Source: Patescibacteria group bacterium (lineage in GTDB: Bacteria > Patescibacteriota > Minisyncoccia > Phycocordibacterales > JAKAEA01). From it: a stretch of 64,000 nucleotides of DNA. Shown here one piece after another: positions 2,571 to 53,372 of the stretch (positions within the stretch are counted from its first letter, which is position 1; the number at the start of each line of letters is the position of its first letter). A program made the position numbers and the translations under genes. Under the pieces are notes generated by a model. That model made no database searches. It was not told where the DNA came from and was given only the letters and a program-made list of their open reading frames with translations. The stretch is taken from positions 104,396 to 168,395 of the forward strand of contig JAZKCY010000001.1 of NCBI GenBank assembly GCA_040387855.1, read 5' to 3'.

Positions 2571-2867
2571 TTGGGAGATAGGATGTCTCTACCACATACC
2601 GACGACCGTTCATTTCGGCTCAATGCCTGGTCATTGGCACTCCTAGCGAGTGCAACCAAACGCGAGCGACACGGCAGCTTCGATGTTTGCGGTGAAGGAA
2701 AAGAAGATCTCTTCACCTATAAACTCGAGGATGGCCGTGAAGTTCACGAACTTGTGACCACGCCATCAACGCAGGGACCGCTCGCAATTATCGGACTCTT
2801 CGATGCGAACGGTAGGTTGATAGAAGAGTCGACAACTTGGTCTCAGACCACAAACTCTCACGCCTAG
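2571..2867 (+). CDS. small hypothetical protein with elevated GC (about 52%)
   Basis: 98 aa ORF whose composition differs from its neighbours. It is followed immediately by a terminator hairpin that contains its stop codon. Confidence 0.4.
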   Translation: MGDRMSLPHTDDRSFRLNAWSLALLASATKRERHGSFDVCGEGKEDLFTYKLEDGREVHELVTTPSTQGPLAIIGLFDANGRLIEESTTWSQTTNSHA

Positions 2868-6063: not shown

Positions 6064-6090
6064 AAAACCCCGATTTCTCGGGGTTTTGTT
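6064..6090 (+). terminator. rho-independent terminator after rpsG
   Basis: AAAACCCCGA-TTTCT-CGGGGTTTTG hairpin followed by a T-run. Confidence 0.6.
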
Positions 6091-6101
6091 ATACTTGAGG
6101 T

Positions 6102-6428
6102 ATGAAAAACCTACCATTCCGCTATAAATTTGGATTAATTACATTAGCTCTGTACTTAATGATTGCTGGATTGCTGATAATCACTCATTTTGCGACGGTA
6201 CAAAACGTAGATGGATTAGGTGATTTCTCTATGGCAGGCTTCGTTCTACTAGTAATATCTCTTCCGGGAATACTTTTAGCTACAGGTTTTCCGTCTTTGG
6301 GTATTATTATGGGTGTTTTAGGTAATACTATTGCATATTTCTTGGTTGGATATGTAATTGGTTCAATTAATGATGTATTAAAAAAGCGAGAACTAACTTT
6401 AATTCGACAACCTGAGGATATAATATAG
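6102..6428 (+). CDS. small hypothetical membrane protein (3 TM) inserted between rpsG and fusA
   Basis: 108 aa hydrophobic ORF. The alternative-frame ORF 5804-6127 is treated as spurious. Confidence 0.4.
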   Translation: MKNLPFRYKFGLITLALYLMIAGLLIITHFATVQNVDGLGDFSMAGFVLLVISLPGILLATGFPSLGIIMGVLGNTIAYFLVGYVIGSINDVLKKRELTLIRQPEDII

Positions 6429-6509
6429 ACTTTTCGCTTTGTTTATATTACAATCACCCTTACTTATTAAGAGGCCACACCTCAAAATTTTTATTATCAA
6501 TCAGTTTAT

Positions 6510-8660
6510 ATGCAAAGAGACTATCCGTTAGAAAGAGTACGTAATTTCGGTATTATTGCCCACATCGACGCAGGTAAGACCACTACGTCAGAACGAATCT
6601 TGTTTTATACAGGAATGAGCCATAAAATCGGTGAAGTTCACGAAGGAGAAACAGTTACCGACTGGATGGAACAGGAACGAGAGCGAGGTATTACTATTAC
6701 CGCCGCTGCTATTACTTGTTTCTGGAATCCTTCATACATGGGAGATGATGTTTCAAAGAAGCATCGTTTCAATGTTATTGATACTCCTGGACATATCGAC
6801 TTTACCGCAGAAGTGAAGCGCTCATTGCGAGTACTCGACGGTGCCGTAGTGGTATTTGACGGTGTGGCAGGTGTAGAACCTCAATCAGAAACCAACTGGC
6901 GATATGCCGATGACGACAATGTGCCTCGAATCTGTTTCATCAACAAGCTTGATCGAATGGGTGCAAGTTTTGATCGATCATTCCAATCTATTATTGATCG
7001 ACTCAATCCAAACGCAGTTCGAGTTCAAATTCCAATTGGAACTGAATCAGATTTCGAAGCTGTTATCGACCTTCTCAAAATGAAGGCCTACTATTTCGAA
7101 GGAGATATGGGTATTAAGATCATCGAAAAAGAAATTCCTGAGGATTACAAGGCAGAAGCAGAGAAATATCGAGCTATTCTTGTTGAAAAGATTGCAGAAC
7201 AAGATGACGAGATGCTTACAGCATACCTTGATGGAAAAACTGACTTTCCTATTGATCAATTGAAAGCAGTTCTACGAAAGGCTTGCCTTCAGGTAAAGCT
7301 TATTCCGGTATTTACTGGATCTGCCCTTAAAAACAAGGGAGTTCAGCTTGTACTCGACGGAGTTGTCGATTATCTTCCAGGTCCAAAGGATGTTCCTCCA
7401 GTTCGAGGTCTTGATCCAAAGGATGGAACTACCGAAATCTTCCGAAACGCCTCAGATGAAGAACCTTTTGCCGCTCTTGCATTCAAACTTCAAAACGATC
7501 CATTCGTAGGTCAGCTTACCTTCTTCCGAGTATATTCAGGAACAATTGAAGCAGGATCTTATATTTACAACGCATCTACTGGAGATAAAGAGCGTTTAGG
7601 CCGAATTGTACGACTTCAAGCAGATAAGCGAGAAGAAGTGAAAAAAGTGTTTGCTGGAGAAATTGCCGCAGCCGTAGGTCTTAAAACTGCAAAAACTTCT
7701 CATACCTTCGCAGATGAAGCAAATCCTATTATTCTTGACCCTATTAAGTTCGTAGAACCTGTGGTTTCACAGCGAATCGAGCCTAAAACAAAGGCAGATC
7801 AGGAAAAGATGGGTACAGCTATGAAAAAGCTTTCTGACGAAGATCCAACCTTTAAGATCAGTTCAAATACAGAAACAGGAGAAACTATTATTTCAGGTAT
7901 GGGTGAATTGCACCTAGAAATCATGGTTGATCGAATGAAACGAGAATTCGGCGTAGAAGCAAACGTAGGTAAGCCACAAGTGGCATATCGAGAGACCATT
8001 ACTGGTACTTCAGAGGCTGAACACAAGTACATCAAACAGTCTGGAGGTAAAGGTCAGTACGGACACGTTCGAATCACTCTTAAGCCAATGGAGCCGCTTG
8101 TAGAGGGTGCTAAGATGCCAAAGAACGTAAAGCGATATGAAGACTTTGAATTCATCGATTCTATTAAGGGAGGAGTTATTCCACAGGAATTTATTCCTGC
8201 AGTAGAAAAGGGAGTGCACGAAGCTATGGATCGTGGAATTCTCGCAGGATTCAAGATGGTAAATGTTTCTTGTGAACTTACATTCGGTTCATACCACGAT
8301 GTGGACTCTTCAGAACTCGCATACAAGATTGCAGGATCTCAGGCCTTCCAAGACGGTGCAAAGCGTGCAAAACCTGTTATTTTGGAGCCTATTATGAAAG
8401 TAGTGGTTACAGTTCCACAAGAATTTTTTGGAGATATTACTGGAAGTCTTTCAGCAAAACGAGGTCTTATTGAAGGAGATACTGAGCGCCCAGGAGGACT
8501 TAAAGTTATTACTTCTAAAGTACCGCTTTCAGAAATGTTCGGATATGTAAGTCAGGTTCGATCAATGACCAAGGGACGAGGAAGTGTAGATATGGAATTT
8601 AGTAACTACGAAATCGTGCCAGGAAACGTAGAAAAGACTATTATCGAAGCTCGAAAATAG
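6510..8660 (+). CDS. fusA: elongation factor G
   Basis: N-terminal [10 protein letters not shown]-domain motif, 716 aa. Confidence 0.95.
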
Positions 8661-15726: not shown

Positions 15727-16578
15727 ATGAAAACATACCGACCAACAACAAAATCACGCCGAAATATGACCTCCATCAACTATGGAGACTATTTAACAGC
15801 GTCAGAACCACAGAAGTCACTTACTCATGGTTTCAAGCGATCAGTAGGACGCAACCATCATGGTAAAGTAACAACTCGACATAAGGGTTCAGGCCACAAG
15901 CGACTCTATCGAGATGTTGATTTCTCATACAACAAGTATGAAATCCCTGCAAAGATTGCAACTATCGAATATGATCCAAACCGAACAGGATTTATTGCAC
16001 TTGCAGTATATGCAGACGGAGAAAAGCGATACATTCTCGCTCCAAAATCAATGCGAGTAGGAGATACTTTCATTGTATCTGAGAAGGCAGATGTAAAGCC
16101 TGGAAACAGACTTCCATTAAGCAAAATCCCTGTAGGAACATTTGTATATAACGTAGAATTAAAGAAGAACGGAGGAGCAAAGATTGCTCGATCAGCAGGA
16201 AACTTCGTAGAAGTGATCGGTCATGATGCAGGATTTGCATTCATCAAAATGCCTTCAAGTGAAGTTCGACGAGTTGTTGATACAGGATTTGCATCAGTAG
16301 GAACCGTATCAAACGATGAAAACCGACTTGTTAATCTTGGAAAAGCGGGACGAAGTCGATGGTTGGGAATTCGACCAACAGTTCGAGGTACTGCCATGAA
16401 CCCAGTAGACCACCCATACGGAGGAGGAGAAGGACGACAGGGACGAGGAACTCGACGAGCAAAGTCTGTATACGGAAAGCCAACAGGAAAGGGACAGAAG
16501 TCACGACGAGCAAAGAAGTACTCAAACGTCTTCATTGTTTCTCGACGAAAAGTTGGAAAGAAGAAGGACAACAAATAA
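15727..16578 (+). CDS. rplB: 50S ribosomal protein L2
   Basis: 283 aa with an intact C-terminus, L2 family. Confidence 0.95.
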   Translation: MKTYRPTTKSRRNMTSINYGDYLTASEPQKSLTHGFKRSVGRNHHGKVTTRHKGSGHKRLYRDVDFSYNKYEIPAKIATIEYDPNRTGFIALAVYADGEKRYILAPKSMRVGDTFIVSEKADVKPGNRLPLSKIPVGTFVYNVELKKNGGAKIARSAGNFVEVIGHDAGFAFIKMPSSEVRRVVDTGFASVGTVSNDENRLVNLGKAGRSRWLGIRPTVRGTAMNPVDHPYGGGEGRQGRGTRRAKSVYGKPTGKGQKSRRAKKYSNVFIVSRRKVGKKKDNK

Positions 16579-16591
16579 TACTCCATACAAA

Positions 16592-16620
16592 AATCCCCAC
16601 CATCTGGTTGGGGTTTTTTG
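16592..16620 (+). terminator. rho-independent terminator immediately after rplB
   Basis: CCCCACC-ATCT-GGTTGGGG hairpin followed by TTTTTTG. Confidence 0.65.
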
Positions 16621-16624
16621 TTTG

Positions 16625-16652
16625 TTGACAAAACACAGAAATACTATATAAC
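16625..16652 (+). promoter_or_regulatory. sigma70-like promoter (TTGACA, 16-nt spacer, TATAAC) upstream of the MYG1 gene
   Basis: Hexamers read directly from the sequence. Confidence 0.45.
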
Positions 16653-16706
16653 TACGCACAGAATCCAGCTCGCGTGAGTATGGAAGGGGAGACACATGTT
16701 TAAAAC

Positions 16707-17618
16707 ATGGGAGAACTCGTGAACGACAAGCTTCCGATTCGTTGGTCAGGCGAGAAGCTGGTGGCATGCACTCACAGCGGACGGTTTCATGGTGATGAAA
16801 TCCATGCTGCCGGCGTCTTGGCTGCCCGCGGCATGGTTAACGAGTTTCGGCGGAGCCGAGACCCTGCAGTGCTCGCCACGTGTGATCTGCGTTTCGACGT
16901 GGGCTACATGTACGATTCAGCCACTATGGACTTCGACCACCATCAAGACGGTGGAGCCGGTGTTCGGGACAACGGTGTGCCGTATGCATCGGCCGGGCTT
17001 ATCTGGGCTCACTTCGGCCATGAGTTGTGCAACGACGATGCCGAGGTACATGCAGAGGTCGACAGGATCCTGTTCCAGCCGATCGACGCACGGGATGTGG
17101 GCTACGACAAGCACATCAAGGCTGGCCAGGGGCTCGTCTACGGCATTTCCGACGACATCCGTCGTCGCAACCCGCCGCCGTTTAGTGACGTAAATTCGGA
17201 CGCTGTCTTCTTAGAGGTGGTGGAGGAGGCCAGGCGTCGTATTGTCGCGGAAGTCGCACTCGTGACGACCGATCTCCGGATCATTCCTCCGTATATCGAG
17301 CGAATGCTCGCTGTTGCGGATACGCCGGGGCTGCTCGTGCTCGACATCGCCTACGACTGGCCCAAGGTTATGCAGAAGTACGCCCCGAACATCTCGGTGA
17401 TCGTCTTTCCGAGCGAAGACGAGAGCGGCTGGAGAGTTCAGTCGGTCAACCTGCAGAAGAGACCGTTGCCTCGTTTATGGGCTGGCAAAAACGGCGCGGA
17501 CATGGTGAAAGCCTCGGGTGTGGCAGACGCACAGTTCTGCAACGCTAAGGGTTATCTCGCCAGTGCCCAAAGCATGGAAGGCGCCGTGGCTTTAGCAGAA
17601 ATCGTGCTTCGAATATAG
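16707..17618 (+). CDS. MYG1/UPF0160-family metal-dependent hydrolase (3'-5' exonuclease-type), high GC (about 59%)
   Basis: Contains CTHSGRFHGDE, RSRDP, CDLRFDVG, DHHQ and SAGLIWAHFGH, matching the conserved MYG1 motifs across the full length. Composition is foreign relative to the surrounding ribosomal-protein genes. Confidence 0.85.
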   Translation: MGELVNDKLPIRWSGEKLVACTHSGRFHGDEIHAAGVLAARGMVNEFRRSRDPAVLATCDLRFDVGYMYDSATMDFDHHQDGGAGVRDNGVPYASAGLIWAHFGHELCNDDAEVHAEVDRILFQPIDARDVGYDKHIKAGQGLVYGISDDIRRRNPPPFSDVNSDAVFLEVVEEARRRIVAEVALVTTDLRIIPPYIERMLAVADTPGLLVLDIAYDWPKVMQKYAPNISVIVFPSEDESGWRVQSVNLQKRPLPRLWAGKNGADMVKASGVADAQFCNAKGYLASAQSMEGAVALAEIVLRI

Positions 17619-17619
17619 G

Positions 17620-17655
17620 AGGAGATCGACTCGTCGGTCTTGCTCCTTTTTTTTA
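17620..17655 (+). terminator. rho-independent terminator after the high-GC MYG1 gene
   Basis: GGAGATCGAC...GTCGGTCTTGCTCC imperfect hairpin followed by T8. Confidence 0.5.
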
Positions 17656-17681
17656 TACCTCTACAGTGATACGATATATCT

Positions 17682-18629
17682 ATGTTTACTACTATCTACA
17701 TTCCCACAAGAATTCAAAACGATACTGCATCAGCAATTTTTATATTAAAGAAATATGGCCGAGAAAAATTTCCAGGGATTGAAAACGCAAAGATAGAAAT
17801 TAGATCTGTTATACCTGTAGGTTTTACTGAAGAAGCTTTGGAAAAAGAGGGGATAGTACTTGTTGATATTGGAAAGGGTAAATTTGATCACCATGGCTCA
17901 GAAGTACAAATTACTTCAACCGATCTCGTATGTAAATTCTTGGGTGTTATAGATAATCCAGCATTAGAAAAGCTTCGAAAATATGTGGAGCGATGTGACT
18001 TTTTTGGTAAAGGCATTATTTCAAATGATCCATTAGATAGAGCTTTTGGATTGCCAGGGCTCCTTATAAATTTAAATAAAAAGCATAACTCAGAGCCAAA
18101 TTCTGTGTACCCAATAATTGCCGAACTTTTTGATGCTCACGTTTTAGAAGAAGAACAGCGTACAGTAGGGTTACCAAAAGAAGTTGAAGAAAAAACCACA
18201 GCTGGATTGGTGGATATATTTAGCCTCAAGCATCATGGCAAAAATATTAAGTGCATCTATATTGCTTCAGATAATATCAGCCTTTCAGGATACCTTCGTT
18301 CTCAAATGGGCGGAGCATATGATGTTGCGATTATTCATATGAGCACAGGACATATAAATATTATGACTCGTCCTGCCAAGCGTGTTGATTTACATGCTCT
18401 CATTGCTGTCATACGCCGCTCAGAGCTTATGAAACGTGGTGACGTGAAGCTCTACACCAATGATCTTCTTTCTCAGACAGGCCGCTTTGATAAGGTCCCT
18501 CAGTGGTATTATGATCCTGCTACAAACTCACTTCAAAACGGAGGGATCAATCCAGGGCAAATAGAAAAGACTGTACTCTCTCGAAAAGAAATAATTGAAT
18601 TGGTGAAAGTGGGATTGGGAGATAGATAA
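17682..18629 (+). CDS. divergent MYG1-like paralog (low GC); the N-terminal His/Asp metal motif is not conserved
   Basis: VLVDIGKGKFDHHG aligns to the DVG..DHHQ region of the upstream MYG1, but the THxGxFHxDE block reads TRIQNDTASA. Confidence 0.5.
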   Translation: MFTTIYIPTRIQNDTASAIFILKKYGREKFPGIENAKIEIRSVIPVGFTEEALEKEGIVLVDIGKGKFDHHGSEVQITSTDLVCKFLGVIDNPALEKLRKYVERCDFFGKGIISNDPLDRAFGLPGLLINLNKKHNSEPNSVYPIIAELFDAHVLEEEQRTVGLPKEVEEKTTAGLVDIFSLKHHGKNIKCIYIASDNISLSGYLRSQMGGAYDVAIIHMSTGHINIMTRPAKRVDLHALIAVIRRSELMKRGDVKLYTNDLLSQTGRFDKVPQWYYDPATNSLQNGGINPGQIEKTVLSRKEIIELVKVGLGDR

Positions 18630-18637
18630 TATTTTTT

Positions 18638-19087
18638 ATGATTATAGAACCAGATCAGCACTATTATGAAAATGGGAAATATGTGTGGACTCCTGAAAAA
18701 AGGGCTGCTGCGTGGGAAAAATGTTTTACTGTTTTAGAACAAGAAGCGACATCTGGAAAATTTAAAAAGATAGTGATGCTTATTGGCATTCCAGGAGCAG
18801 GGAAGAGTACCTACACTAAAGCTCATGATAGTGAGTCTACTATTATATTTGATGGAGTCTTTGTAAATCCGAAAGAACGGGAACGAGCTATTACTATTGC
18901 ACATTCAACAGGCCTTCCGATTGAAGGGGTGTGGCTTAATACACCTTTAGAAATATGTTTGGAAAGAAATGCTCAAAGAACTGATGATAGAAAGGTACGG
19001 GAGGATCATGTAACTATGATGTATGAGAATTTACAGAAAAATAAGCCTCGTTTAGAAGAGGGATATACGACATTTATAGAGCAATAA
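18638..19087 (+). CDS. small P-loop NTPase/kinase (AAA_33 / polynucleotide-kinase-like)
   Basis: 149 aa with Walker A GIPGAGKST, a downstream D/R-rich lid, and a size and architecture resembling Pnk/zeta-type kinase domains. Confidence 0.55.
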   Translation: MIIEPDQHYYENGKYVWTPEKRAAAWEKCFTVLEQEATSGKFKKIVMLIGIPGAGKSTYTKAHDSESTIIFDGVFVNPKERERAITIAHSTGLPIEGVWLNTPLEICLERNAQRTDDRKVREDHVTMMYENLQKNKPRLEEGYTTFIEQ

Positions 19088-19093
19088 AGACAC

Positions 19094-19121
19094 TTGACAA
19101 TATATATAGCTGTGCTATAAT
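19094..19121 (+). promoter_or_regulatory. consensus sigma70 promoter (TTGACA, 16-nt spacer, TATAAT) for the 19172 gene
   Basis: Perfect hexamers read directly from the sequence. Confidence 0.55.
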
Positions 19122-19171
19122 ATACACCGTACCAGTTCCGTCAGTTTTCACCTACTAGAAAGGGTCATTCC

Positions 19172-19855
19172 ATGACCGCTTCGTCCACCCCCAGCGTCGC
19201 TTCCGCCAAGATCCTGATGTCCAGCCTCCGCACCGTGAACCGGTTCGTGCTGAACTTCCAGGTCGAGGGCCTGCGCCCGCCGAGCAACTTCCCGCCGATC
19301 CGCGAGTGCGCCCCCCTCACCACGGGGACCAAGGCGCCCAAGCAGGTCGAGCGCGGCGAGAAGCTCGTCGAGCGGACCCGCGAGGTCTGCTCGCTCGATG
19401 CCCCGAGCATCATCAGCGCCTGCTTTGACGCCGGCCTGATCTACTGCAAGATGCTCATGCTCCCCAAGGGTCCGCCCACGGTCAGCATGCGCTTCAAGCG
19501 GCAGACGGAGCAGACCGACGCGGTCGCCCCGAACGACGCCAACTACCTCACGACGGAGATCGAGACGATCTACGGTCCGTGGATGGTGATGCTCCAGGGC
19601 TCGCTCCGGCTCGACTGCAACTTCGACCCCTACGGGCTCACCGTGGAGGAGGAGGCCGAGTACCTGCGGAAGCGCTACCGGAACGCCGGCACGCACAACG
19701 CGACGGAGATCGAGCGCAAGGTCAAGCAAGAGGCCACGGGCACGCCGTACCTCCTGACCGGGACGCACTACGTCGAGGCCCTGCGGCTCACCCCGCCGGC
19801 CTACCACAGGCTGTTCGCCCACGAGGGTGCGCTCCTGCTCGACGGCGAGCTCTAG
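19172..19855 (+). CDS. hypothetical protein, very high GC (about 65%, strongly GC3-biased), unknown function
   Basis: 227 aa with normal amino-acid composition and GC-ending codons. The overlapping minus-strand ORF 19148..19969 is judged to be a high-GC antisense artefact. Confidence 0.6.
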   Translation: MTASSTPSVASAKILMSSLRTVNRFVLNFQVEGLRPPSNFPPIRECAPLTTGTKAPKQVERGEKLVERTREVCSLDAPSIISACFDAGLIYCKMLMLPKGPPTVSMRFKRQTEQTDAVAPNDANYLTTEIETIYGPWMVMLQGSLRLDCNFDPYGLTVEEEAEYLRKRYRNAGTHNATEIERKVKQEATGTPYLLTGTHYVEALRLTPPAYHRLFAHEGALLLDGEL

Positions 19856-19911
19856 GTCGATGTTCGACCCAGCGTTTTGATGAACAATACCCCAAACTAG
19901 AAAGGTGAACA

Positions 19912-19940
19912 GGCCGATGCATAAACTGCATCGGCCTTTC
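19912..19940 (+). terminator. rho-independent terminator after the 19172 gene
   Basis: GGCCGATGCA-TAAAC-TGCATCGGCC perfect 10-bp stem followed by TTT. Confidence 0.6.
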
Positions 19941-19953
19941 ACTTGGGAAAGAT

Positions 19954-19980
19954 TTGACATGCTCCACACTTTCGTATAAT
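19954..19980 (+). promoter_or_regulatory. consensus sigma70 promoter (TTGACA, 15-nt spacer, TATAAT) re-initiating the rpsS-rplV-rpsC... operon
   Basis: Hexamers read directly from the sequence. Confidence 0.55.
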
Positions 19981-20031
19981 ATGTGACTCACGCTCTGAAC
20001 TAGAGCTCTTTTGTTTCATATATATCTATCC

Positions 20032-20385
20032 ATGGCACGATCACTCAAAAAAGGACCATACGTTGACGAAAAGCTTCTCAAGAAAATTGAGGGCAAAAAG
20101 CCACAGGCTACTGGGGTTATTAAGACCTGGGCACGTGCAAGTCAGATTTCACCAGAAATGGTAGGTTTTATCTTTGGCGTTCACAACGGTAAGGATCATA
20201 TCGAAGTTTTGGTATCTGAAGAAATGGTGGGTCATCGTCTTGGTGAATTTTCTCCAACAAAGAAATTCCTACGACACGGAGGTAAGATGCAGAAGGAGCT
20301 TGAACAGAAAAAGAAGGAATCAGAAATTGCAGCAGCGCAATCTGCTAAGGCTGCAACAGCTGATGCCGGTGCTAAGAAAAAATAA
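20032..20385 (+). CDS. rpsS: 30S ribosomal protein S19 (Lys/Ala-rich C-terminal extension)
   Basis: [12 protein letters not shown] matches S19. The start is placed at the internal ATG of the ORF listed from 20011. Confidence 0.9.
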
Positions 20386-23607: not shown

Positions 23608-23664
23608 TATACAAGGCAGAACGTTGACCACAACAACATTTTCTGCTAGTATTTCATTCACTTT

Positions 23665-46345: not shown

Positions 46346-47641
46346 TTAGAAGAACTTGAGCATGAAGGTGATGATGATGAACAATACACCCAGGATGCTC
46401 ACGCTCCAGATGATGTAGCCAAAGAACGAAGGCATCGAGATCCCGCGCCGTTTGGCAATGGCGAAGATCATAAAGTTTGGCGCATTGCCAATGTAGGTGA
46501 GTGCCCCCATATACACGGCGCCAAGACTGATGGCCTTCACGAGGTCTGGTGATTGTGCTGTCAGGTGGGGAAGCGAGGTCGAACCCGTTGTCGATTCGGC
46601 CATCGACATGAATACCAGGAACGTCGGCGCATTGTCGAGCACCGACGAGAACACACCGGTTGCCCAGAAGTACTGTGCTGGCTCGCTCACTCCAAGCGAC
46701 GAACCTGAATGCTGCAGCAGCTGCAGTGCTGGGACCATTGTCATGAAGATCCCGGCGAATACGACTGCCACCTCCACTATCGGTCCGAACTCGAAGTTGT
46801 TTTTTTGTCGCGCCTCTTTTGCAATTGGCGCGAGCTTCGAGTACACGAGTGATATGACGATGGTGATCACGAAGATCACTTCACGCCACGGGCTCGCTAC
46901 CGCAATGACACTGCCTACGATCACCATCATGAGCACTGCATTGCCAAGGCCGATGAGCATGAGTGGCTCCACATGCTCTTTGTCTTGAGCAATATCTTCG
47001 TTGGACTCCTTGTTGTAAAAGTACTTGTCGATCACGAGGTACACAGCGAGCAACACGATGCCGCTCACCAACCAGTAGACCCAAAGATTTCGGGCAAACC
47101 AGAAGAATTCGATTCCTCGCAAGTAGCCGAGGAAGAGCGGTGGGTCACCGAGGGGAGTGAGTAACCCTCCGAGATTGCTTACCAAAAAGATGAAAAACAC
47201 GACAGTATGCCGCACGTGTTTTCGTTCTTGGTTGCTTCGCAATAGTGGATAGATCATGAGGATCGAGGCACCCATTGTGCCCACAACACTCGCCATGATG
47301 TATCCGCTCGCAAGCATCATCGCATTGCGGCCCGGCGTTGCTCGCAGATCACCCTTGATGTGGATGCCTGAGGCAACGATGAACAGCGCAGCGAGGAGCA
47401 GTATGAACTGCACAAATTCGATCCCCGCATGCACGATCAAGTTTCGATCGTGCTGTGCCACGTAGATGGCAACTGGTAAGCCGAGCGTGAGGATCACGCA
47501 CAATTTCACCCAGTTTTTTTCCCACGCATGCTTGGTAAAGCTCACGAGGGGAAGGACTGCGATGAGGCCGAGCAGCACCGCAAACGGCACTACCGACCAC
47601 AGTGTTGGAATCCACGAACTTGCTGCAAGTGATGAAATCAC
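46346..47641 (-). CDS. ArsB/NhaD-superfamily permease (putative ion/anion transporter), elevated GC (about 54%)
   Basis: LTPLGDPPLFLGY matches the TPxGDPPN-type motif, with multi-TM topology. A GTG start sits behind a GAGAGGG Shine-Dalgarno. Confidence 0.6.
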   Translation of the reverse strand: MISSLAASSWIPTLWSVVPFAVLLGLIAVLPLVSFTKHAWEKNWVKLCVILTLGLPVAIYVAQHDRNLIVHAGIEFVQFILLLAALFIVASGIHIKGDLRATPGRNAMMLASGYIMASVVGTMGASILMIYPLLRSNQERKHVRHTVVFFIFLVSNLGGLLTPLGDPPLFLGYLRGIEFFWFARNLWVYWLVSGIVLLAVYLVIDKYFYNKESNEDIAQDKEHVEPLMLIGLGNAVLMMVIVGSVIAVASPWREVIFVITIVISLVYSKLAPIAKEARQKNNFEFGPIVEVAVVFAGIFMTMVPALQLLQHSGSSLGVSEPAQYFWATGVFSSVLDNAPTFLVFMSMAESTTGSTSLPHLTAQSPDLVKAISLGAVYMGALTYIGNAPNFMIFAIAKRRGISMPSFFGYIIWSVSILGVLFIIITFMLKFF

Positions 47642-47777
47642 GACACCCTCTCTGTAAGAACAATTGAATCCGTTCAATCGACGGTCAGACTTTTAAATAC
47701 CACATTATATATATAAAGTCAATATACTAGCAAATAAAAAACCATGAAGCGCGATGGTTTGTCGCGCACTCATGGTG

Positions 47778-48173
47778 TTAAATACTTAGCCCGATTTCTA
47801 TCCGCAAAAGCTCTGAACACCTCTGCATGTCTTCAATCGGTAAGACATGTGCTTCCTTGAAATCTCGATGTCGATCTCTTACTTCTGGGATATCAAACAC
47901 CGACTTCTTGATCATCCGGAAGCAGGCAGGATCATTTTTGATGATTGCCCAGTCTTCACCGGAACCGATGATGATTCCGCATACAAAAGCGATCCACATG
48001 TCCCACGCCTTGAACGAGTGTAGCTCGTCGTTGGGAACTTCCGGTTTCCACGTGGGCAGTGGGCCTGGGTTAAACTTTGCCTGTCCGCGTTGGAAGTAAA
48101 TCATCGAGGTCGTGGGATTGTTTCTTCCATACACCCACAGACACTCAACCGCTGGCAGTTTCACAGACATCAA
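47778..48173 (-). CDS. hypothetical protein, moderately elevated GC
   Basis: 131 aa ORF followed by an ACCAT...ATGGT hairpin and T-run. Confidence 0.4.
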   Translation of the reverse strand: MMSVKLPAVECLWVYGRNNPTTSMIYFQRGQAKFNPGPLPTWKPEVPNDELHSFKAWDMWIAFVCGIIIGSGEDWAIIKNDPACFRMIKKSVFDIPEVRDRHRDFKEAHVLPIEDMQRCSELLRIEIGLSI

Positions 48174-48671: not shown

Positions 48672-49190
48672 TTATACAGTTAATTCGTTTTCCTTTTTAA
48701 TATCAACAACATTCTGTAAGAGTTTTTGTAGTACACCTGCAAAGGTGGCAATGATAAGTGGTGAACATACAAACGTCATTGCAAAAAGAATGAGTCCAGG
48801 TGCATCATCTCCATCAGCAATAAAAAATGCGAGCGGCATAATAAATACATAACACAAGGTCATACTACCTGCGCAGTACTTTATTGTTTTTAGAGCATTC
48901 ACTGATTCCTGAGAGAACGCAGTGTTCTTATCAATGTATGTTAAAAGCTTGAGACCTTGATAGAGTGCGATGAAAAAGGGAATAGCACTGAGATATAGTC
49001 CTACAAATGCGAAAGGTTGCGACTCTTTAATTCCTGGCCACTCAAGTGCCATTCCTCTATATATGTGAGGGAATGCAAAAATGCAGAGGGCGAGTACCGC
49101 GAGTCCAAATACGATAATGACTGCTTTTAAAAATAATGTTGATCCTTTATTCATAAAACTATGATTAGTTGATGATAAAGAGCTTAGCAT
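48672..49190 (-). CDS. DUF2975-like membrane protein (the usual partner of YozG-like HTH)
   Basis: 172 aa, 4 TM, with the conserved gene pairing. Confidence 0.5.
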   Translation of the reverse strand: MLSSLSSTNHSFMNKGSTLFLKAVIIVFGLAVLALCIFAFPHIYRGMALEWPGIKESQPFAFVGLYLSAIPFFIALYQGLKLLTYIDKNTAFSQESVNALKTIKYCAGSMTLCYVFIMPLAFFIADGDDAPGLILFAMTFVCSPLIIATFAGVLQKLLQNVVDIKKENELTV

Positions 49191-49265: not shown

Positions 49266-49892
49266 CTATTTCGATGTATTGCGAACTGCGGCGAAGCATG
49301 TATTCTCCCAAGGGACCCTGAGATCCTGCCCTCCGGTCATGAAGTAGTTTGGAGCGAGTTGGAGTACTCGCTTGTTACTAATCTTCATGAGTACTGGGTT
49401 GTACCCAACGTGGGGTGGGCTCGTGTTGGTTTTATCAAACACCATTTCCCCAAGTGCCAGTACGATGTGGTCGTTCTGGAACTCGGGGTATTTGGCGCCG
49501 AAGGCCAAGAGCTCGACGAGATTTGCCGGACGGCAGTCGTTGTCGACGATGATCTTTAGGATGTCGTTCGTACGCATACTGCGTTCGAACGAAAACATGA
49601 CCATCGTTTCTTCAGCGCTCGCTCGAGTGGTGTCCGAAATTGTACGCGGAATTCGCGGGTTAACCTCCACATACGTACCACGCTCGATATACTCATGCGA
49701 GCTGAGTGTCCGATCAACGGCAACCGAAAATTCTTTCGTTCGAACTTCTGGTCCCGATTCCTTGATCGGGTTCGTCATCGCTTTTTCCTGGGCCTCCTTC
49801 ATCAACCGCTCGCCCTCGTTGTGGGGCGCGCAGCCGATGGTGAGGCCGAGGATCATGACGATGAGGAACGACAGACGGGGAAGCAGTGACAT
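49266..49892 (-). CDS. lipoprotein of unknown function, high GC (about 57%)
   Basis: Signal peptide with lipobox LTIGC. Confidence 0.55.
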   Translation of the reverse strand: MSLLPRLSFLIVMILGLTIGCAPHNEGERLMKEAQEKAMTNPIKESGPEVRTKEFSVAVDRTLSSHEYIERGTYVEVNPRIPRTISDTTRASAEETMVMFSFERSMRTNDILKIIVDNDCRPANLVELLAFGAKYPEFQNDHIVLALGEMVFDKTNTSPPHVGYNPVLMKISNKRVLQLAPNYFMTGGQDLRVPWENTCFAAVRNTSK

Positions 49893-50058: not shown

Positions 50059-51132
50059 TCAAGTTTGAGGTTTACCTAAAGAACGGAGCAGTCTGTAGTG
50101 GGACACAATGGCCAACCACATCGTGTCGTGTGAGTGGTAGGTCAGTTCGTGGCGTTTGCAGACCCGTCGTACGAGCCTGCAAATTTTGGGGTAGTGGATG
50201 TGGGAAATCCTGGGGAAGAGGTGGTGCTCGATCTGGTAATTTAATCCTCCTAGGAACCAGGTGAGCACTTTGTTTTTTGGAGCGAAGTTGGCCGTCGTGA
50301 GCACTTGATGCTCCGCCCACGCATTTTCCATTGCTCCCTGTTCGGGGTCTGGAAGCGGGAACTTTGTTTCTTCCACTACATGGGCAAGTTGGAATACGAC
50401 GGCAAGTACCACACCCATACACCAACTGGCGAAAAGGTACACGAGCACTACCTGCCAGAACGGATGGAAGAGCGAAGGGATGACAAACGCCCATGTATAG
50501 AACAGAAGCTTGCCTCCAATGAACGTTGCTAGATGCACTCCTCGTGGGCGCGCGAACGGATATTTCCCGATCCGTCCACGTATGACGTTGAGGAAGTCAT
50601 CGAAGAGTTGCCACTTCACAGGAACCAATCCGTACACAAACCACAAATAAATGTGTTGCACGCGGTGAAACCAAAGCCTGGGTTGCGTGGGCGCGAGACG
50701 CCCTAAGATCCCAGTATTGATGTCATCGTCATGCTCCGCAATATTTGTGTATGTGTGATGGACGATGTTGTGCTTGTGCGTCCACACGTACGAACTTCCC
50801 CCTATGGCATCGAGTGAGAATGCAGCGAGACGGTTGATCCATCGGTGTTTTGAAAACGCCTGATGATTCCCGTCGTGCTGAATGCAAAACCCGATTCCTG
50901 CCATCGCCAATCCAATGCTCATGGCGAGCAACATCGCTTGCCACCACGCGGTGGCAAAGAATACGAGCACGATGTAGCTCGCTGCTAGCCACAGCATGAG
51001 CGTGACCGCCTTCACGTAGAGGTCGGCAGTAGCATGGCGACTGCGCTTGGTCATCGCAAAGTAGCGATCCACCGTTTTTTTGAGGTCAGAGAAAAAATCG
51101 CTACGCTTCCGAAACTTGACTGGGGTGATCAT
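50059..51132 (-). CDS. membrane fatty-acid desaturase family protein, high GC
   Basis: Three His boxes: HDGNH, HNIVHH and HQIEHH. Start at the ATG behind GAAAGGAGGG. Confidence 0.8.
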   Translation of the reverse strand: MITPVKFRKRSDFFSDLKKTVDRYFAMTKRSRHATADLYVKAVTLMLWLAASYIVLVFFATAWWQAMLLAMSIGLAMAGIGFCIQHDGNHQAFSKHRWINRLAAFSLDAIGGSSYVWTHKHNIVHHTYTNIAEHDDDINTGILGRLAPTQPRLWFHRVQHIYLWFVYGLVPVKWQLFDDFLNVIRGRIGKYPFARPRGVHLATFIGGKLLFYTWAFVIPSLFHPFWQVVLVYLFASWCMGVVLAVVFQLAHVVEETKFPLPDPEQGAMENAWAEHQVLTTANFAPKNKVLTWFLGGLNYQIEHHLFPRISHIHYPKICRLVRRVCKRHELTYHSHDTMWLAIVSHYRLLRSLGKPQT

Positions 51133-51237
51133 GACACCCTCCTTTCGTTGTAATGCAATTGGTGCTGGTCCAACCAAAGTATACCATCTTGGATGTATAT
51201 TAATTTGAAAGCAGAATCGCAAAGAAATAAAAAGTAC

Positions 51238-52008
51238 CTATACCTCAGAATTCAATATCATTTCAATTTCTTTTTTTACATCCTCATCACTCTTTGTAGG
51301 CATGAGATCTCCTTTTTGATTTCCATAATTACCAGCTTGAGCATGATTCATTCCTTCAATAGGGAAGTCTCTCTGTGACGTTGGAAGATTGCTGCTATAT
51401 GCTGAGAGTTTTTCAGGAGTTAATACACCATCAAGAGAACCATGAATATTTACTACCTTAAAGTTTTTACTTGATACATCGCTGTTGCAGTAGGTTCCTA
51501 CTAAGAGTAATGTCTCAAACTTTTCTGCATGATTTTTTGCATACTCACATGCCATTGCTCCTCCCATTGAATGACCGCCAAGAGTCCATGTTTTTATTTC
51601 AGGATGTGTATCAATTATTTTACCAGCTTGGCCAATACTAAATATCGCGAGATTTAAAGGAGGTTTAGTAACAAACAATATAGAAGGAGAAGAAGTGCTG
51701 GTGACAATACTTTCTAATTTATAAAAGTAAGCTTGAGGATCAACTTTTGCTCCAGGATAATAGATAACTCCTTTTGTAGATGTTGTCGCATTAGGAGCAA
51801 TCTCCCAGTATTTTGGATGCTCAGTTACTGTTATAAGATCTTTATTTGTATTTAAAAATTCTTGAAGTTTAGTTTGATCGGCTTTGTAAATTTGCTTTGC
51901 CCAGATTACAAAAGAAATAACAGCGATCAATAGGAGCGTTATAAGCGTAAGAACTATTTTCCTCCAGAGCTTCATTTTCTTAGGGGTAGGTTGGATAGCG
52001 GTTTGCAT
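51238..52008 (-). CDS. alpha/beta-hydrolase (lipase/esterase-like) with N-terminal TM anchor
   Basis: GHSMGG nucleophile elbow. The start is placed at the internal ATG so it does not overlap the upstream gene. Confidence 0.6.
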   Translation of the reverse strand: MQTAIQPTPKKMKLWRKIVLTLITLLLIAVISFVIWAKQIYKADQTKLQEFLNTNKDLITVTEHPKYWEIAPNATTSTKGVIYYPGAKVDPQAYFYKLESIVTSTSSPSILFVTKPPLNLAIFSIGQAGKIIDTHPEIKTWTLGGHSMGGAMACEYAKNHAEKFETLLLVGTYCNSDVSSKNFKVVNIHGSLDGVLTPEKLSAYSSNLPTSQRDFPIEGMNHAQAGNYGNQKGDLMPTKSDEDVKKEIEMILNSEV

Positions 52009-52138
52009 AAAATATATTATAAAGTGTTTTTTGTTTGTAGGATATTCATAAATAAAAAACTGCGAGATGCATAGAGATGTGAATCTCTCGGCTTTCTCGC
52101 AATAAGTTGGTTGGATGATCCTAACCGATCTTTTCCCT

Positions 52139-53344: not shown

Positions 53345-53372
53345 AATAAAAAGCCCCGCTAGCATGCCGGGG
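53345..53372 (-). terminator. rho-independent terminator overlapping the stop codon of the 53359 gene
   Basis: CCCCG-CTAGCATGC-CGGGG followed by CTTTTTATT on the - strand. Confidence 0.5.

What the first reader, a model, noticed from the sequence alone, without database searches (positions are those of the whole stretch)
16579..20031. Self-contained four-gene insertion exactly between rplB and rpsS inside the S10 ribosomal-protein operon
The rplB-rpsS junction is among the most conserved gene adjacencies in bacteria. Here both genes are intact, and 3.4 kb carrying four genes sits between them. A rho-independent terminator (16592-16620) sits just after rplB. Internal TTGACA/TATAAN promoters lie at 16625 and 19094, and terminators follow both high-GC genes. 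A near-perfect TTGACA-15-TATAAT promoter at 19954-19980 restarts transcription of rpsS through rplO. The ribosomal operon has therefore been split into two transcription units by an insert that brings its own expression signals. No integrase, transposase or repeats are visible at the borders.
Basis: partly seen in the sequence, partly recalled or inferred. Interest (0 to 1): 0.9.

Follow-up and report, generated by a model that had tools for sequence, protein, structure and literature searches.

The report
Conserved RNA-processing genes splitting ribosomal operon
Four non-ribosomal genes really do sit between rplB and rpsS in this Patescibacteria genome, but they are an old, lineage-conserved RNA-end-processing locus at a junction that was already a transcription boundary and a hotspot for extra genes, and two of the four have an unexplained, long-maintained high G+C content.

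Summary
rplB (15727-16578) and rpsS (20032-20385) are intact. Between them lie 3.45 kb with four genes, three hairpin terminators and three sigma-70-like promoters. No integrase or flanking repeats are present.

The interpretation of a recent, self-contained insert that split the operon is only partly right.
- The rpsS promoter and a short leader hairpin occur throughout this Paceibacteria-type clade, including relatives with no insert.
- L084 carries MYG1, an ORF2 homologue and an ORF4-like gene at the same junction, with the same promoter and terminator layout. Synonymous sites between the two genomes are saturated.
- A third lineage has ORF2 directly after rplB.
- Other relatives carry unrelated cargo at this junction: MazEF, ParE, glycosyltransferase with deacetylase, DAGK, a 1439-aa surface protein.
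- All 67 other loci retrieved (mostly non-Patescibacteria) have gaps under 150 nt.

Gene content:
- ORF1: MYG1-family DHH exoribonuclease.
- ORF2: an unnamed DHH/DHHA1-fold family, often fused to 2H phosphoesterases.
- ORF3: Pnkp/T4-Pnk-like kinase.
- ORF4: an orphan.

I infer an RNA-end processing or repair function.

Unexplained: MYG1 (GC3 0.68) and ORF4 (GC3 0.96) are GC-rich in a 40% GC genome. Their positional counterparts in relatives are also GC-rich and diverge very fast.

The parts
15727..16578 (+). rplB (ribosomal protein L2), intact; left anchor of the locus
   Evidence: Pfam Ribosomal_L2_N and L2_C. 62-71% identical to the Paceibacteria-type relatives L001-L014 and about 80-90% to L084.
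16584..16624 (+). Intrinsic-terminator-like hairpin plus U-tract after rplB
   Evidence: -18.3 kcal/mol, z -2.9. L084 has an equivalent hairpin at the same place, -16.5 kcal/mol, z -5.1.
16625..16652 (+). Promoter-like site P1 (TTGACA-16-TATAAC) upstream of ORF1
   Evidence: Read from the sequence. L084 has TTGACA-17-TATAAA at the same position. Not experimentally mapped.
16707..17618 (+). ORF1: MYG1/UPF0160-family DHH phosphoesterase (predicted 3'-5' exoribonuclease); GC 0.58, GC3 0.68
   Evidence: PF03690, E 2.4e-42, 146 bits. Best database homologue is only 39-42% identical. Sister to the L084 MYG1: NJ 100/100, plus a shared deletion and shared loss of the FCH histidine. GC values.
17617..17655 (+). 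Terminator-like hairpin plus U8 after ORF1
   Evidence: -15.6 kcal/mol, z -2.6. Listed by the terminator scan at 17622-17641.
17682..18629 (+). ORF2: member of an unnamed family seen only in Patescibacteria-labelled records, with a DHH/DHHA1-like fold; native GC 0.38
18638..19087 (+). ORF3: small P-loop kinase resembling polynucleotide 5'-kinases; starts 8 nt after ORF2, so probably co-transcribed with it
   Evidence: AAA_33, E 6.7e-14. Best PDB matches are the C. thermocellum Pnkp kinase domain (E 3.7e-6) and T4 Pnk. PHROG polynucleotide kinase, E 1.8e-10. TIGR04075 bacter_Pnkp, E 4e-8, below its cutoff.
19094..19121 (+). Promoter-like site P2: TTGACA-16-TGcTATAAT (12/12 with extended -10) upstream of ORF4
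   Evidence: Best-scoring site in 18 kb. The same TTGACA..TGTG(A/C)TATAAT lies at the orthologous position in L084 and L094.
19172..19855 (+). ORF4: orphan protein-coding gene; GC 0.68, GC1/2/3 = 0.61/0.46/0.96
   Evidence: Codon-position periodicity and codon usage. Only itself found among 5.8 billion proteins and among 1.84 billion representatives. No family in Pfam, PADLOC, PHROGs or NCBIfam. The positional counterpart in L084 is 27% identical, pairwise E 4e-9.
19904..19943 (+). Long hairpin (17 pairs) after ORF4; terminator-like with a weak U-tract
   Evidence: Region folds at -36.9 kcal/mol, z -5.5. Perfect 11-nt inverted repeat I23. Equivalent 15-pair hairpin in L084. A TGTTCGA(A)CC motif just after the stop codon is shared with L084.
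19954..19982 (+). Promoter-like site P3 for rpsS and the downstream ribosomal genes
   Evidence: Conserved in position and sequence in L084. Present upstream of rpsS in the Paceibacteria-type relatives, with or without an insert.
19992..20013 (+). rpsS 5'-leader hairpin (GCUCU-gaacu-AGAGC) plus U-rich tract
   Evidence: weak on its own: -6.5 to -7.3 kcal/mol. An equivalent AGCUC-loop-GAGCU-U-rich element is present in L001, L002, L003, L005, L006, L011, L012 and L084.
20032..20385 (+). rpsS (ribosomal protein S19), intact; right anchor
   Evidence: Pfam Ribosomal_S19, E 3.3e-32. The ATG at 20032 matches the MxRSLKKGP starts of relatives.

Best explanation
The locus is a lineage-conserved accessory gene set, not a recent mobile insertion. 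It sits at a transcription-unit boundary that already existed between rplB and rpsS in this Paceibacteria-type Patescibacteria clade.

Why the site is permissive (inferred). In this clade rpsS has its own promoter and leader hairpin, and in several members rplB has its own terminator. The junction therefore tolerates extra genes without polar effects on ribosomal-protein expression. I infer that cargo enters and is exchanged by homologous recombination anchored in the highly conserved flanking ribosomal genes, since no integrase or repeats are present.

What it encodes. In the window's sub-lineage the junction holds an RNA-end toolkit arranged as separate units:
- P1 to MYG1 to terminator.
- ORF2-ORF3, by read-through or an unrecognised promoter.
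- P2 to ORF4 to hairpin.
- P3 to leader to rpsS and onward.

Inferred activities:
- MYG1 trims RNA 3' ends. The human and yeast enzymes are 3'-5' exoribonucleases that process rRNA (PMC6582341).
- ORF2 is a DHH/DHHA1 phosphoesterase. I infer that it removes terminal phosphates or degrades short oligoribonucleotides, because its homologues are repeatedly fused to 2H cyclic-phosphodiesterase domains.
- ORF3 phosphorylates 5'-OH ends.
- Together they would heal or mature broken or precursor RNA (rRNA, tRNA) or recycle RNA.
- ORF4 is a fast-evolving partner of unknown role.

Shown versus inferred. Shown: gene content, folds and families, conserved synteny and signals, the clade-wide rpsS promoter, variable cargo in relatives, and the composition anomaly. 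Inferred: the enzymatic activities, the transcript structure, the recombination route, and any link to ribosome biogenesis. The persistently high GC3 of MYG1 and the ORF4-like genes remains unexplained.
For: - Anatomy and signals.
- Conserved architecture in L084, including orthologous promoters, hairpins and the TGTTCGA(A)CC motif.
- ORF2 directly after rplB in a third lineage, with the same P2-type promoter.
- Close-relative fragments with the same gene spacing.
- Saturated four-fold sites between the window and L084 (identity 0.25-0.48 vs chance 0.23-0.32).
- MYG1 orthology (NJ 100/100; shared deletion and lost His and Trp).
- Clade-wide rpsS promoter and leader, also without an insert.
- Different cargo at the same junction: MazEF in L004, ParE in L010, GT2 with deacetylase and DAGK in L011, DAGK in L012, a Big_7/PG-binding protein in L001, and unknown genes in L002, L003, L006, L013 and L061.
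- Tight junction in 67 of 76 loci, including all non-Patescibacteria genomes retrieved.
- ORF2 fold and fusions.
- ORF3 kinase affinities.
- MYG1 biochemistry: PMC6582341.
- No repeats or integrase.
Against: - No transcript data exist. Promoter and terminator calls are consensus matches, and their overall count is at chance level.
- No RNA ligase or 2H domain is present in this window's locus, so a complete repair pathway is not encoded here.
- ORF3 is missing in L084. MYG1 is missing in the L094 lineage. The gene set is therefore not a fixed module.
- Both syntenic MYG1 proteins have lost the conserved C-terminal FCH histidine, so their activity may differ from characterised MYG1.
- The GC3 of 0.96 in ORF4 would normally signal a very recent transfer, which fits poorly with simple vertical inheritance.
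- Only three lineages with the arrangement could be retrieved.
Confidence: 0.6

Rival explanations
1. Recent horizontal insertion. A foreign, self-contained four-gene cassette with its own signals recently landed between rplB and rpsS and split the operon.
For: - Two genes have strongly foreign composition: GC3 0.68 and 0.96 against about 0.28 for native genes.
- ORF4 codon usage looks like that of a roughly 70% GC organism: A3 0.00, T3 0.03.
- The window has other GC-elevated, probably acquired genes: CitMHS_2, a fatty-acid desaturase and several orphans at 46-54 kb.
- HGT and genomic islands are common in Patescibacteria (PMC12455944).
- The cargo at this junction differs among relatives.
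Against: - The same gene order, the same high/low/high GC alternation and the same promoters and hairpins occur in L084, at saturated synonymous divergence.
- ORF2 and ORF3 have native composition, as do the intergenic regions.
- The rpsS promoter predates any insert.
- No donor was found for ORF1 (at most 42% identity) or ORF4 (none) in 5.8 billion proteins, phages, plasmids or viral contigs.
- A narrower version remains open: recent xenologous replacement of the ORF4 coding sequence alone, which I put at roughly 0.3.
Confidence: 0.12
2. Conflict or defence islet. The junction is a hotspot for selfish or defensive cargo. The GC-rich, rapidly diverging, individually promoted orphans flanking the DHH gene are effector/immunity-type or anti-phage components under arms-race selection. 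The nucleases and the kinase act on foreign or damaged RNA.
For: - Toxin-antitoxin modules occupy the same junction in L004 (MazEF) and L010 (ParE).
- ORF4-like genes diverge extremely fast: 27% identity against 62% for the adjacent ORF2, and no detectable similarity in L094.
- GC-rich orphans recur next to ORF2-family genes in 5 of 7 loci examined.
- ORF3 also matches Zeta_toxin weakly.
Against: - No PADLOC model matches any of the four proteins at a meaningful E-value.
- ORF1, ORF2 and ORF3 resemble housekeeping RNA-metabolism enzymes.
- ORF2 sits next to an S1 RNA-binding protein gene, FtsH or IF-2 in other lineages.
- No known toxin or immunity domain was found in ORF4.
Confidence: 0.18
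3. Nucleic-acid salvage. The DHH enzymes and the kinase degrade scavenged RNA oligonucleotides to mononucleotides for an organism that cannot make nucleotides. The position in the ribosomal cluster is incidental.
For: - The closest structural relatives of ORF2 include NrnA-type nanoRNases and pAp phosphatases, pGpG phosphodiesterases and exopolyphosphatase.
- From general knowledge: Patescibacteria generally lack de novo nucleotide synthesis.
Against: - Recurrent fusion of ORF2 to 2H/LigT and tRNA-ligase-type CPD domains points to RNA end healing rather than bulk degradation.
- ORF3 resembles polynucleotide kinases more than nucleoside or nucleotide kinases.
- The two roles are not mutually exclusive.
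Confidence: 0.08
4. Assembly chimera. The high-GC blocks are foreign reads joined into the contig.
For: - Sharp GC steps occur at the gene borders.
- ORF4's exact protein is recorded only from NCBI, whereas its neighbours are also found in Logan assemblies.
Against: - Independent assemblies from other samples (L084 from JGI, L094/ERZ1426646 from ENA) show the same interleaving of GC-rich and native genes at the same junction.
- Both flanks of each GC-rich gene are native, and they are orthologous to the L084 flanks.
- The source contig is 981 kb.
Confidence: 0.02

Closest known systems
[quoted passage not shown]
   Same: Same gene order on both sides of the junction. rplB and rpsS are adjacent, with gaps under 150 nt, in 67 of 76 retrieved loci, including all the non-Patescibacteria genomes.
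   Different: rplB is followed by a terminator. rpsS has its own promoter and leader hairpin throughout the clade. 0.5-4.9 kb of non-ribosomal genes sit at the junction in most clade members.
Integration hotspots between conserved core genes that lack integrases (chromosomal HGT hotspots; capsule and O-antigen loci exchanged through conserved flanks). Cited from my own knowledge of the literature, not checked here.
   Same: Variable, compositionally atypical cargo at one fixed position between highly conserved genes. No integrase or repeats. Toxin-antitoxin modules are among the cargo.
   Different: The hotspot lies inside the most conserved ribosomal-protein cluster. Part of the cargo (ORF2, MYG1) is stably inherited over saturated synonymous divergence.
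RNA end-healing enzymes of RNA repair and tRNA splicing (T4 Pnk, bacterial Pnkp/Hen1, fungal and plant Trl1 kinase-CPD)
   Same: ORF3 is a P-loop kinase most similar to the Pnkp and T4 Pnk kinase domains. 2H/CPD domains are fused to ORF2 homologues.
   Different: No ligase or Hen1 is present. In this window the 2H domain is absent. A DHH/DHHA1 protein and a MYG1 exonuclease take the place of the HD or metallophosphatase module. All scores are below the family-specific cutoffs.
MYG1 / UPF0160 3'-5' RNA exonuclease (human MYG1, yeast Yer156c; PMC6582341)
   Same: Full-length Pfam match. The DHH motif and the N-terminal H..FH.D motif are conserved.
   Different: At most 42% identical to any homologue. 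It has lost the conserved C-terminal FCH histidine and carries a deletion, both shared only with the syntenic L084 copy. It is GC-rich in an AT-rich genome and located inside the ribosomal cluster.
DHH/DHHA1 phosphoesterases (NrnA, RecJ, GdpP, family II pyrophosphatase, PPX1)
   Same: ORF2 has a two-domain fold with DHH enzymes as its top structural matches, and an invariant D...D...DHH motif.
   Different: No sequence-profile match to the Pfam DHH or DHHA1 models and no PDB sequence match. The family was seen only in Patescibacteria-labelled records.

Membership tests
MYG1 / UPF0160 (PF03690), for ORF1 | Full-length match to the family HMM above the curated cutoff | tested here: met
   146.1 bits against a cutoff of 22.1; residues 21-299 on profile positions 3-316 of 318.
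MYG1 / UPF0160 (PF03690), for ORF1 | Catalytic DHH motif and N-terminal H-x3-F-H-x-D metal-binding motif | tested here: met
   H23, F27, D30 and D77-H78-H79 are invariant columns in alignment A2.
MYG1 / UPF0160 (PF03690), for ORF1 | Conserved C-terminal histidine (the FCH motif; the His proposed for RNA substrate selectivity in PMC6582341) | tested here: not met
   ORF1 has FCN and the L084 orthologue has FCS, where the other ten sequences in alignment A2 have a histidine at this position (FCH, or FAH in P0013).
MYG1 / UPF0160 (PF03690), for ORF1 | 3'-5' exoribonuclease activity | not testable with these tools
   Needs biochemistry.
DHH/DHHA1 phosphoesterase superfamily, for ORF2 | DHH-type fold (N-terminal DHH domain plus C-terminal DHHA1-like domain) | tested here: met
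DHH/DHHA1 phosphoesterase superfamily, for ORF2 | Conserved Asp and DHH metal-binding motifs | tested here: met
   D14, D62, D69-H70-H71, D116 and D119 are invariant in 40 homologues.
DHH/DHHA1 phosphoesterase superfamily, for ORF2 | Sequence-profile match to the Pfam DHH/DHHA1 models or to solved DHH proteins | tested here: not met
   No Pfam hit at E 0.1 or below. The profile of A1 against PDB gives no hit at E 1 or below. hhalign of A1 against ORF1 aligns only the FDHH motif.
Polynucleotide 5'-kinase (T4 Pnk / Pnkp kinase domain), for ORF3 | P-loop kinase of the AAA_33 type with a Walker A motif | tested here: met
   GIPGAGKST is present. PF13671 scores 52.8 bits against a cutoff of 27.
Polynucleotide 5'-kinase (T4 Pnk / Pnkp kinase domain), for ORF3 | Specific membership in Pnkp or PNK equivalogs | tested here: inconclusive
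   The best PDB hits are the CthPnkp kinase domain (E 3.7e-6) and T4 Pnk (E 1e-3). PHROG polynucleotide kinase gives E 1.8e-10. The TIGR04075, TIGR01663 and PSTK scores are far below their cutoffs.
Complete RNA repair system (Pnkp/Hen1, RtcAB, Trl1-type) | An RNA ligase (sealing) component encoded with the healing enzymes | tested here: not met
   None of the four genes has a ligase domain. The rest of the genome was not searched.
Mobile genomic island / integrative element | Integrase, transposase or relaxase, and flanking direct repeats (att sites) | tested here: not met
   Neighbouring ORFs are tuf and ribosomal-protein genes. No flanking repeats were found. No match in phage, plasmid or viral collections for ORF4.
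Mobile genomic island / integrative element | Absent from related genomes at the same site (recent gain) | tested here: not met
   Present in L084 and, for ORF2, in the ERZ1426646/L094 lineage.
   Positional conservation in L084 and L094. Function is not testable here.

The most novel reading that the evidence does not exclude
The GC-rich genes flanking the DHH gene are MYG1 and the ORF4-like orphans. Each has its own near-consensus promoter and terminator, and each is interleaved with native AT-rich genes. The novel reading is that they are kept at high GC3 by a gene-specific force acting over long evolutionary time. That force could be codon- or mRNA-level selection, for example transcripts or codons that stay usable when A/U-rich RNA or A-ending-codon tRNAs are attacked. 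It could instead be a locus-targeted GC-biased mutation or conversion process coupled to very fast protein divergence. Either would be a new kind of compositionally insulated gene class in Patescibacteria, marked by the ORF2 family.
Probability: 0.2. Interest if true: 0.8.

Novelty: new variant of a known kind. Interest (0 to 1): 0.55.

Why it matters
- The rplB-rpsS adjacency is one of the most conserved gene adjacencies in bacteria. It is systematically broken in one large uncultivated class. There it functions as a promoter-bounded slot that collects accessory genes: toxin-antitoxin modules, envelope enzymes and RNA enzymes. This bears on how ribosomal-protein stoichiometry is regulated in Patescibacteria. 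It also matters for genome binning and HGT detection, because islands inside ribosomal clusters can be mistaken for transferred ribosomal genes.
- The locus defines an uncharacterised DHH/DHHA1 family linked to 2H phosphoesterases, a Pnk-like kinase and MYG1. This gives biochemists a concrete candidate RNA-end-processing pathway in organisms with minimal RNA metabolism.
- The long-term persistence of GC3 0.63-0.96 in specific fast-evolving genes within 40-45% GC genomes contradicts simple amelioration. It can be tested directly with population metagenomics.

Tried and rejected
- Exact-protein look-ups of the window's own rplB, ORF2 and ORF4 found no contig on record. The source assembly could therefore not be re-read independently.
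- The metagenome scan with ORF2 returned only six distant loci and none at the junction.
- ORF4 searches all came back empty: the 5.8-billion-protein search, a full phmmer against 1.84 billion representatives, viral contigs, phage and plasmid tblastn, Pfam, PADLOC, PHROGs, NCBIfam and PDB sequences. The one extra phmmer hit, P0242, is a tandem-repeat translation matching a 33-residue stretch five times. I rejected it as spurious.
- The single-sequence AlphaFold model of ORF4 is unusable (pLDDT 32.8), so no fold search was done on it.
- ORF1 and ORF2 as recent paralogues: rejected. Only the FDHH motif aligns.
- The L094 255-aa gene and the L093/L085 290-aa genes as ORF4 homologues: no significant similarity. 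Only the position and the promoter are shared.
- ORF4 as a GC-rich structured RNA rather than a gene: rejected, because of the strong codon periodicity (GC1/2/3 = 0.61/0.46/0.96) and the intact ORF.
- Integron-like cassette: considered because of the orphan-plus-hairpin units. No integrase was found, and the post-stop motif TGTTCGAMCC is not enriched in the window (4 matches against 5.2 expected).
- Rfam found no known leader or ncRNA between 12 and 27 kb.
- An automatic consensus fold of the rpsS leaders failed because MAFFT misaligned the short hairpins. The hairpin is reported from manual inspection only.
- MYG1 genes elsewhere in Patescibacteria (L081, L082) are not GC-elevated. The anomaly is therefore not a property of the family.

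Full report
**1. Observation**

The window is a 40% GC Patescibacteria genome segment. NCBI labels the source as a 'Patescibacteria group bacterium' MAG with locus tags V4519_, on a 981,549-bp contig. It carries tuf followed by the S10-spc ribosomal cluster. rplB (15727-16578) and rpsS (20032-20385) are intact by Pfam.

Four + strand genes lie between them:

| Gene | Coordinates | Identity | GC / GC3 |
|---|---|---|---|
| ORF1 | 16707-17618 | MYG1/UPF0160, E 2.4e-42 | 0.58 / 0.68 |
| ORF2 | 17682-18629 | no Pfam hit | 0.38 / 0.28 |
| ORF3 | 18638-19087 | AAA_33 kinase | 0.37 / 0.26 |
| ORF4 | 19172-19855 | no family | 0.68 / 0.96 |

Intergenic GC is native, about 0.41.

- Hairpin plus U-tract after rplB: -18.3 kcal/mol.
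- Hairpin plus U8 after ORF1: -15.6 kcal/mol.
- A 17-pair hairpin after ORF4.
- TTGACA-16-TATAAC at 16625.
- A perfect TTGACA-16-TGcTATAAT at 19094-19121.
- TTGACA at 19954 with TATAAT or TAATAT 15 or 17 nt downstream.

There are no flanking repeats, and no integrase or transposase among the neighbouring ORFs. The total number of promoter-like and terminator-like matches in the region is at the chance level. These sites are credible because they are conserved in relatives, as shown below.

**2. How unusual the junction is**

A scan of one genome per GTDB species with the rplB protein returned 80 loci. Both genes could be located in 76 of them.
- In 67 loci the rplB-rpsS gap is under 150 nt. 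This includes every Bacillota, Actinomycetota, Bacteroidota and other non-Patescibacteria genome in the set.
- The 9 loci with gaps over 500 nt are all Patescibacteria-type MAGs. Eight belong to the group most similar to the window (rplB 62-71% identity): L001 4880, L011 4432, L013 1116, L002 1108, L003 858, L004 799, L012 559 and L006 516 nt. The ninth is L061, 567 nt, a more distant MAG labelled Saccharibacteria with rplB 53% identical.
- L005, L009 and L014 have 145, 70 and 58 nt.

The cargo in these gaps is unrelated to the window's four genes and differs from locus to locus:
- L004: a MazE/MazF pair.
- L010: a ParE-type toxin pair, followed by non-ribosomal genes.
- L011: a GT2 glycosyltransferase, a polysaccharide deacetylase, an unknown gene and a DAGK.
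- L012: DAGK alone.
- L001: a 1439-aa Big_7/peptidoglycan-binding protein.
- L002, L003, L006, L013, L061: unknown small genes.

The junction is therefore a clade-wide hotspot for accessory genes.

**3. The split predates the cargo**

Upstream of rpsS I found a TTGAC(A/T)-N16-17-TAnnAT promoter. It occurs in the window, L003, L005, L006, L009, L011, L012, L014 and L084, and further upstream in L002 and L004.

In most of these loci it is followed about 10 nt later by a short AGCUC-loop-GAGCU hairpin and a U-rich tract. L005 (145-nt gap), L009 and L014 have no insert, yet all three have the promoter and L005 also has the hairpin. The rpsS promoter is therefore ancestral to the clade and was not brought by the insert.

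A terminator after rplB is also present in L084 and L005.

**4. The same arrangement exists in relatives**

ORF2 has 157 detectable homologues. Every source name given refers to Patescibacteria: Paceibacterota, Taylorbacteria, Yanofskybacteria.

*L084.* The 62%-identical homologue P0124 lies on a 77.7-kb JGI contig, L084. Its layout is:
- tuf, S10, L3, L4, L23 and L2;
- a terminator and TTGACA-17-TATAAA;
- MYG1 (GC 0.57, GC3 0.63; 37% identical to ORF1);
- a U-rich hairpin;
- the ORF2 homologue (GC 0.38);
- TTGACA-17-TGaTATAAT;
- a 185-aa gene (GC 0.59, GC3 0.77; 27% identical to ORF4, pairwise E 4e-9);
- a 15-pair hairpin;
- a TTGACA promoter, the leader hairpin and rpsS.

The intergenic regions align at the functional motifs. 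These include a TGTTCGA(A)CC motif just after the stop codon of the ORF4-like genes. L084 has no ORF3.

*ERZ1426646 / L094.* A third lineage carries the 54%-identical, 450-aa homologue P0126. This protein has an N-terminal extension with two HxT/S motifs. It sits on an ENA contig directly after tuf-S10-L3-L4-L23-L2, separated from rplB only by a minus-strand 172-aa gene.

The identical protein on L094 is followed by TTGACA-17-TGaTATAAT. That promoter drives a 255-aa GC-rich orphan (GC3 0.79). A hairpin follows, then another consensus promoter and another GC-rich gene (GC3 0.72).

*JGI 3300071358.* Fragments from this sample hold an rplB in the same 90%-identity cluster and an ORF2 86% identical to the window's. 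They show a gene starting 135 nt after rplB and a gene starting 7 nt after ORF2, as in the window.

*Age.* Four-fold synonymous sites in tuf, rplC, rplD, rpsS, rplV, rpsC and rplP between the window and L084 are 25-48% identical, against 23-32% expected by chance. They are essentially saturated. The arrangement is therefore old.

**5. What the genes are**

*ORF1* is a full-length MYG1 with the DHH motif and the N-terminal metal-binding motif. No homologue exceeds 42% identity.
- It is sister to the L084 copy. The NJ cherry is recovered in 100 of 100 bootstraps among 45 sequences. A compositional artefact is possible, but the two also share a deletion and share the loss of the otherwise conserved FCH histidine and NPSW tryptophan.
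- Human MYG1 is a DHH-motif 3'-5' RNA exonuclease that processes pre-rRNA and mitochondrial rRNA 3' ends (PMC6582341).

*ORF2* gives a confident AlphaFold model (pLDDT 92.7).
- D14, D62 and D69-H70-H71 are invariant in 40 homologues.
- No sequence profile (Pfam, NCBIfam, PHROGs, PDB) recognises it.
- Many homologues are fused, at either end, to LigT/2H or tRNA-ligase-type CPD domains.

*ORF3* is a 149-aa P-loop kinase. Its best matches are:
- the C. thermocellum Pnkp kinase domain (E 3.7e-6) and T4 polynucleotide kinase;
- the PHROG 'polynucleotide kinase' family;
- TIGR04075 Pnkp, which is below its family cutoff.

*ORF4* has no detectable relative other than the positional counterpart in L084. 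Its single-sequence model is unusable.

**6. Most likely mechanism**

Shown:
- three or four separately signalled units at a pre-existing operon boundary;
- a 3'-5' exonuclease family, a DHH/DHHA1 phosphoesterase with 2H-domain affinity, and a Pnk-like kinase.

Inferred:
- The set processes RNA ends. MYG1 trims 3' ends, ORF2 removes terminal or cyclic-phosphate products or short oligonucleotides, and ORF3 phosphorylates 5'-OH ends.
- This would serve rRNA or tRNA maturation or repair. The position next to ribosomal genes is consistent with that but does not prove it.
- The pathway is incomplete here, because there is no ligase.
- RNA salvage and a conflict or defence role are viable rivals.
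- Cargo probably enters by recombination through the conserved ribosomal flanks, because no recombinase or repeats are present. This step was not tested.

**7. The unexplained part**

*Composition.* MYG1 and the ORF4-position genes are GC-rich in all three lineages (MYG1 in two of them). The ORF2, ORF3, ribosomal and intergenic sequences between them are native. GC3 values are 0.68 and 0.96 in the window, 0.63 and 0.77 in L084, and 0.64, 0.79 and 0.72 in L094.

*Why a pre-split transfer does not explain it.* Synonymous sites are saturated between the lineages. A gene acquired before their split should therefore have ameliorated to the genomic GC3 of 0.28-0.45. Yet the MYG1 copies are orthologues by tree, shared indel and position.

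*ORF4 codon usage.* ORF4 has A3 0.00 and T3 0.03, with GAG, CTC, GCC, CCG, ACG and ACC as its commonest codons. This looks like a roughly 70% GC organism. Its flanks, however, are orthologous to those in L084.

*Rate of divergence.* These genes also diverge much faster than their neighbours: 37% and 27% identity, against 62% for ORF2 and 68-92% for tuf and the ribosomal proteins compared.

*Recurrence next to ORF2 elsewhere.* GC-rich, Pfam-less genes also sit next to ORF2-family genes elsewhere in the genome in L093 and L085. They are absent in L088 and weak in L095.

*Not a property of the MYG1 family.* MYG1 genes at other genomic positions (L081, L082) are not GC-elevated.

*Other GC-rich genes in the window.* The window holds further GC-elevated genes interleaved with native ones at 46-54 kb: CitMHS_2, a fatty-acid desaturase and several orphans.

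*Candidate explanations.* All of the following are untested:
- codon- or mRNA-level selection;
- locus-specific biased conversion;
- repeated replacement from an unsampled GC-rich gene pool.

**8. Comparison with the known, and verdict**

The closest known things are:
- the canonical S10 operon, which has the same order but is unsplit;
- integrase-free HGT hotspots between core genes;
- RNA end-healing enzymes (Pnkp, T4 Pnk, Trl1 kinase-CPD);
- MYG1;
- NrnA/RecJ-type DHH enzymes.

The locus is not a member of a complete RNA-repair system, because it has no ligase. It is not a mobile island, because it has no recombinase or att sites and is present in relatives.

A paper on HGT in Patescibacteria reports many genomic islands, enriched for translation genes including ribosomal proteins (PMC12455944). 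That is compatible with islands inside ribosomal clusters, but the paper does not describe this junction. My literature searches found no description of an rplB|rpsS hotspot.

Verdict:
- The interpretation as a recent self-contained insertion is only partly supported.
- The thing is a new variant of a known kind: an accessory hotspot locus and an RNA-processing gene set.
- It carries a real compositional anomaly that deserves follow-up.
- Interest is about 0.55.

Noticed in passing
window 19954-20031; L003, L005, L006, L011, L012, L001, L002 and L084 upstream of rpsS: A conserved rpsS 5' leader. A promoter is followed about 10 nt later by a 5-6-bp hairpin with a conserved stem sequence (AGCUC/GAGCU; variants GCUCU/AGAGC, CGCUC/GAGCG and GCUC/GGGC keep pairing) and a U-rich tract. 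It may be an attenuator or a ribosomal-protein autoregulatory site. There is no Rfam match. The automatic consensus fold failed on a misalignment.
   Followed up: partly
window 46346-47677(-), 47778-48173(-), 49266-49892(-), 50059-51222(-), 52139-52816(-), 52900-53238(-), 53359-53739(-), 2571-2867(+): A second mosaic of GC-elevated genes (GC3 0.52-0.67) interleaved with native genes (48672-49190 and 51238-52197, GC3 about 0.3). The GC-elevated set includes a CitMHS_2 transporter and a fatty-acid desaturase; the rest have no Pfam hit. GC3 in this genome looks bimodal.
   Followed up: partly
L084 13488-13751: The relative L084 has an 87-aa DUF2283 gene (GC 0.30) inserted between rplE and rpsN in the spc part of the cluster. 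The window has only 57 nt there (23608-23664). This is a second ribosomal-cluster junction carrying cargo in this lineage.
   Followed up: partly
L084 6066-6912: rplB in L084 matches in two overlapping frames (6066-6632 and 6625-6912), and the gene caller gave a 196-aa product. This is probably an assembly frameshift rather than a pseudogene.
   Followed up: no
window 59842-59916 (-) and 56817-57226 (-): A tRNA-Ile with anticodon UAU (genomic TAT). To my knowledge this is an uncommon way of reading AUA in bacteria. A tmRNA with tag peptide AKSARTAVASPYASNFAFALA is also present.
   Followed up: no
L007 2702-4637: In this MAG, labelled Saccharibacteria, about 1.6 kb downstream of rplB contains no ORF of 70 aa or more, and no rpsS before the contig ends. 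It may be non-coding cargo or degraded genes at the same junction.
   Followed up: no
L093 4778-7902; L085 116-2479; L088 336-3024: Outside the junction, ORF2-family genes sit next to an S1-domain RNA-binding protein gene (L093) or occur as tandem paralogues (L088). In L093 and L085 they also sit next to 290-aa GC-rich orphans that are weakly similar to each other (pairwise E 0.001).
   Followed up: partly
window 19528-19564 and 19678-19714: An internal 37-nt direct repeat (76% identity) within ORF4 encodes ..N(Y/H)(L/N)(T/A)TEIE.. twice, which suggests an internal duplication in the orphan protein.
   Followed up: no
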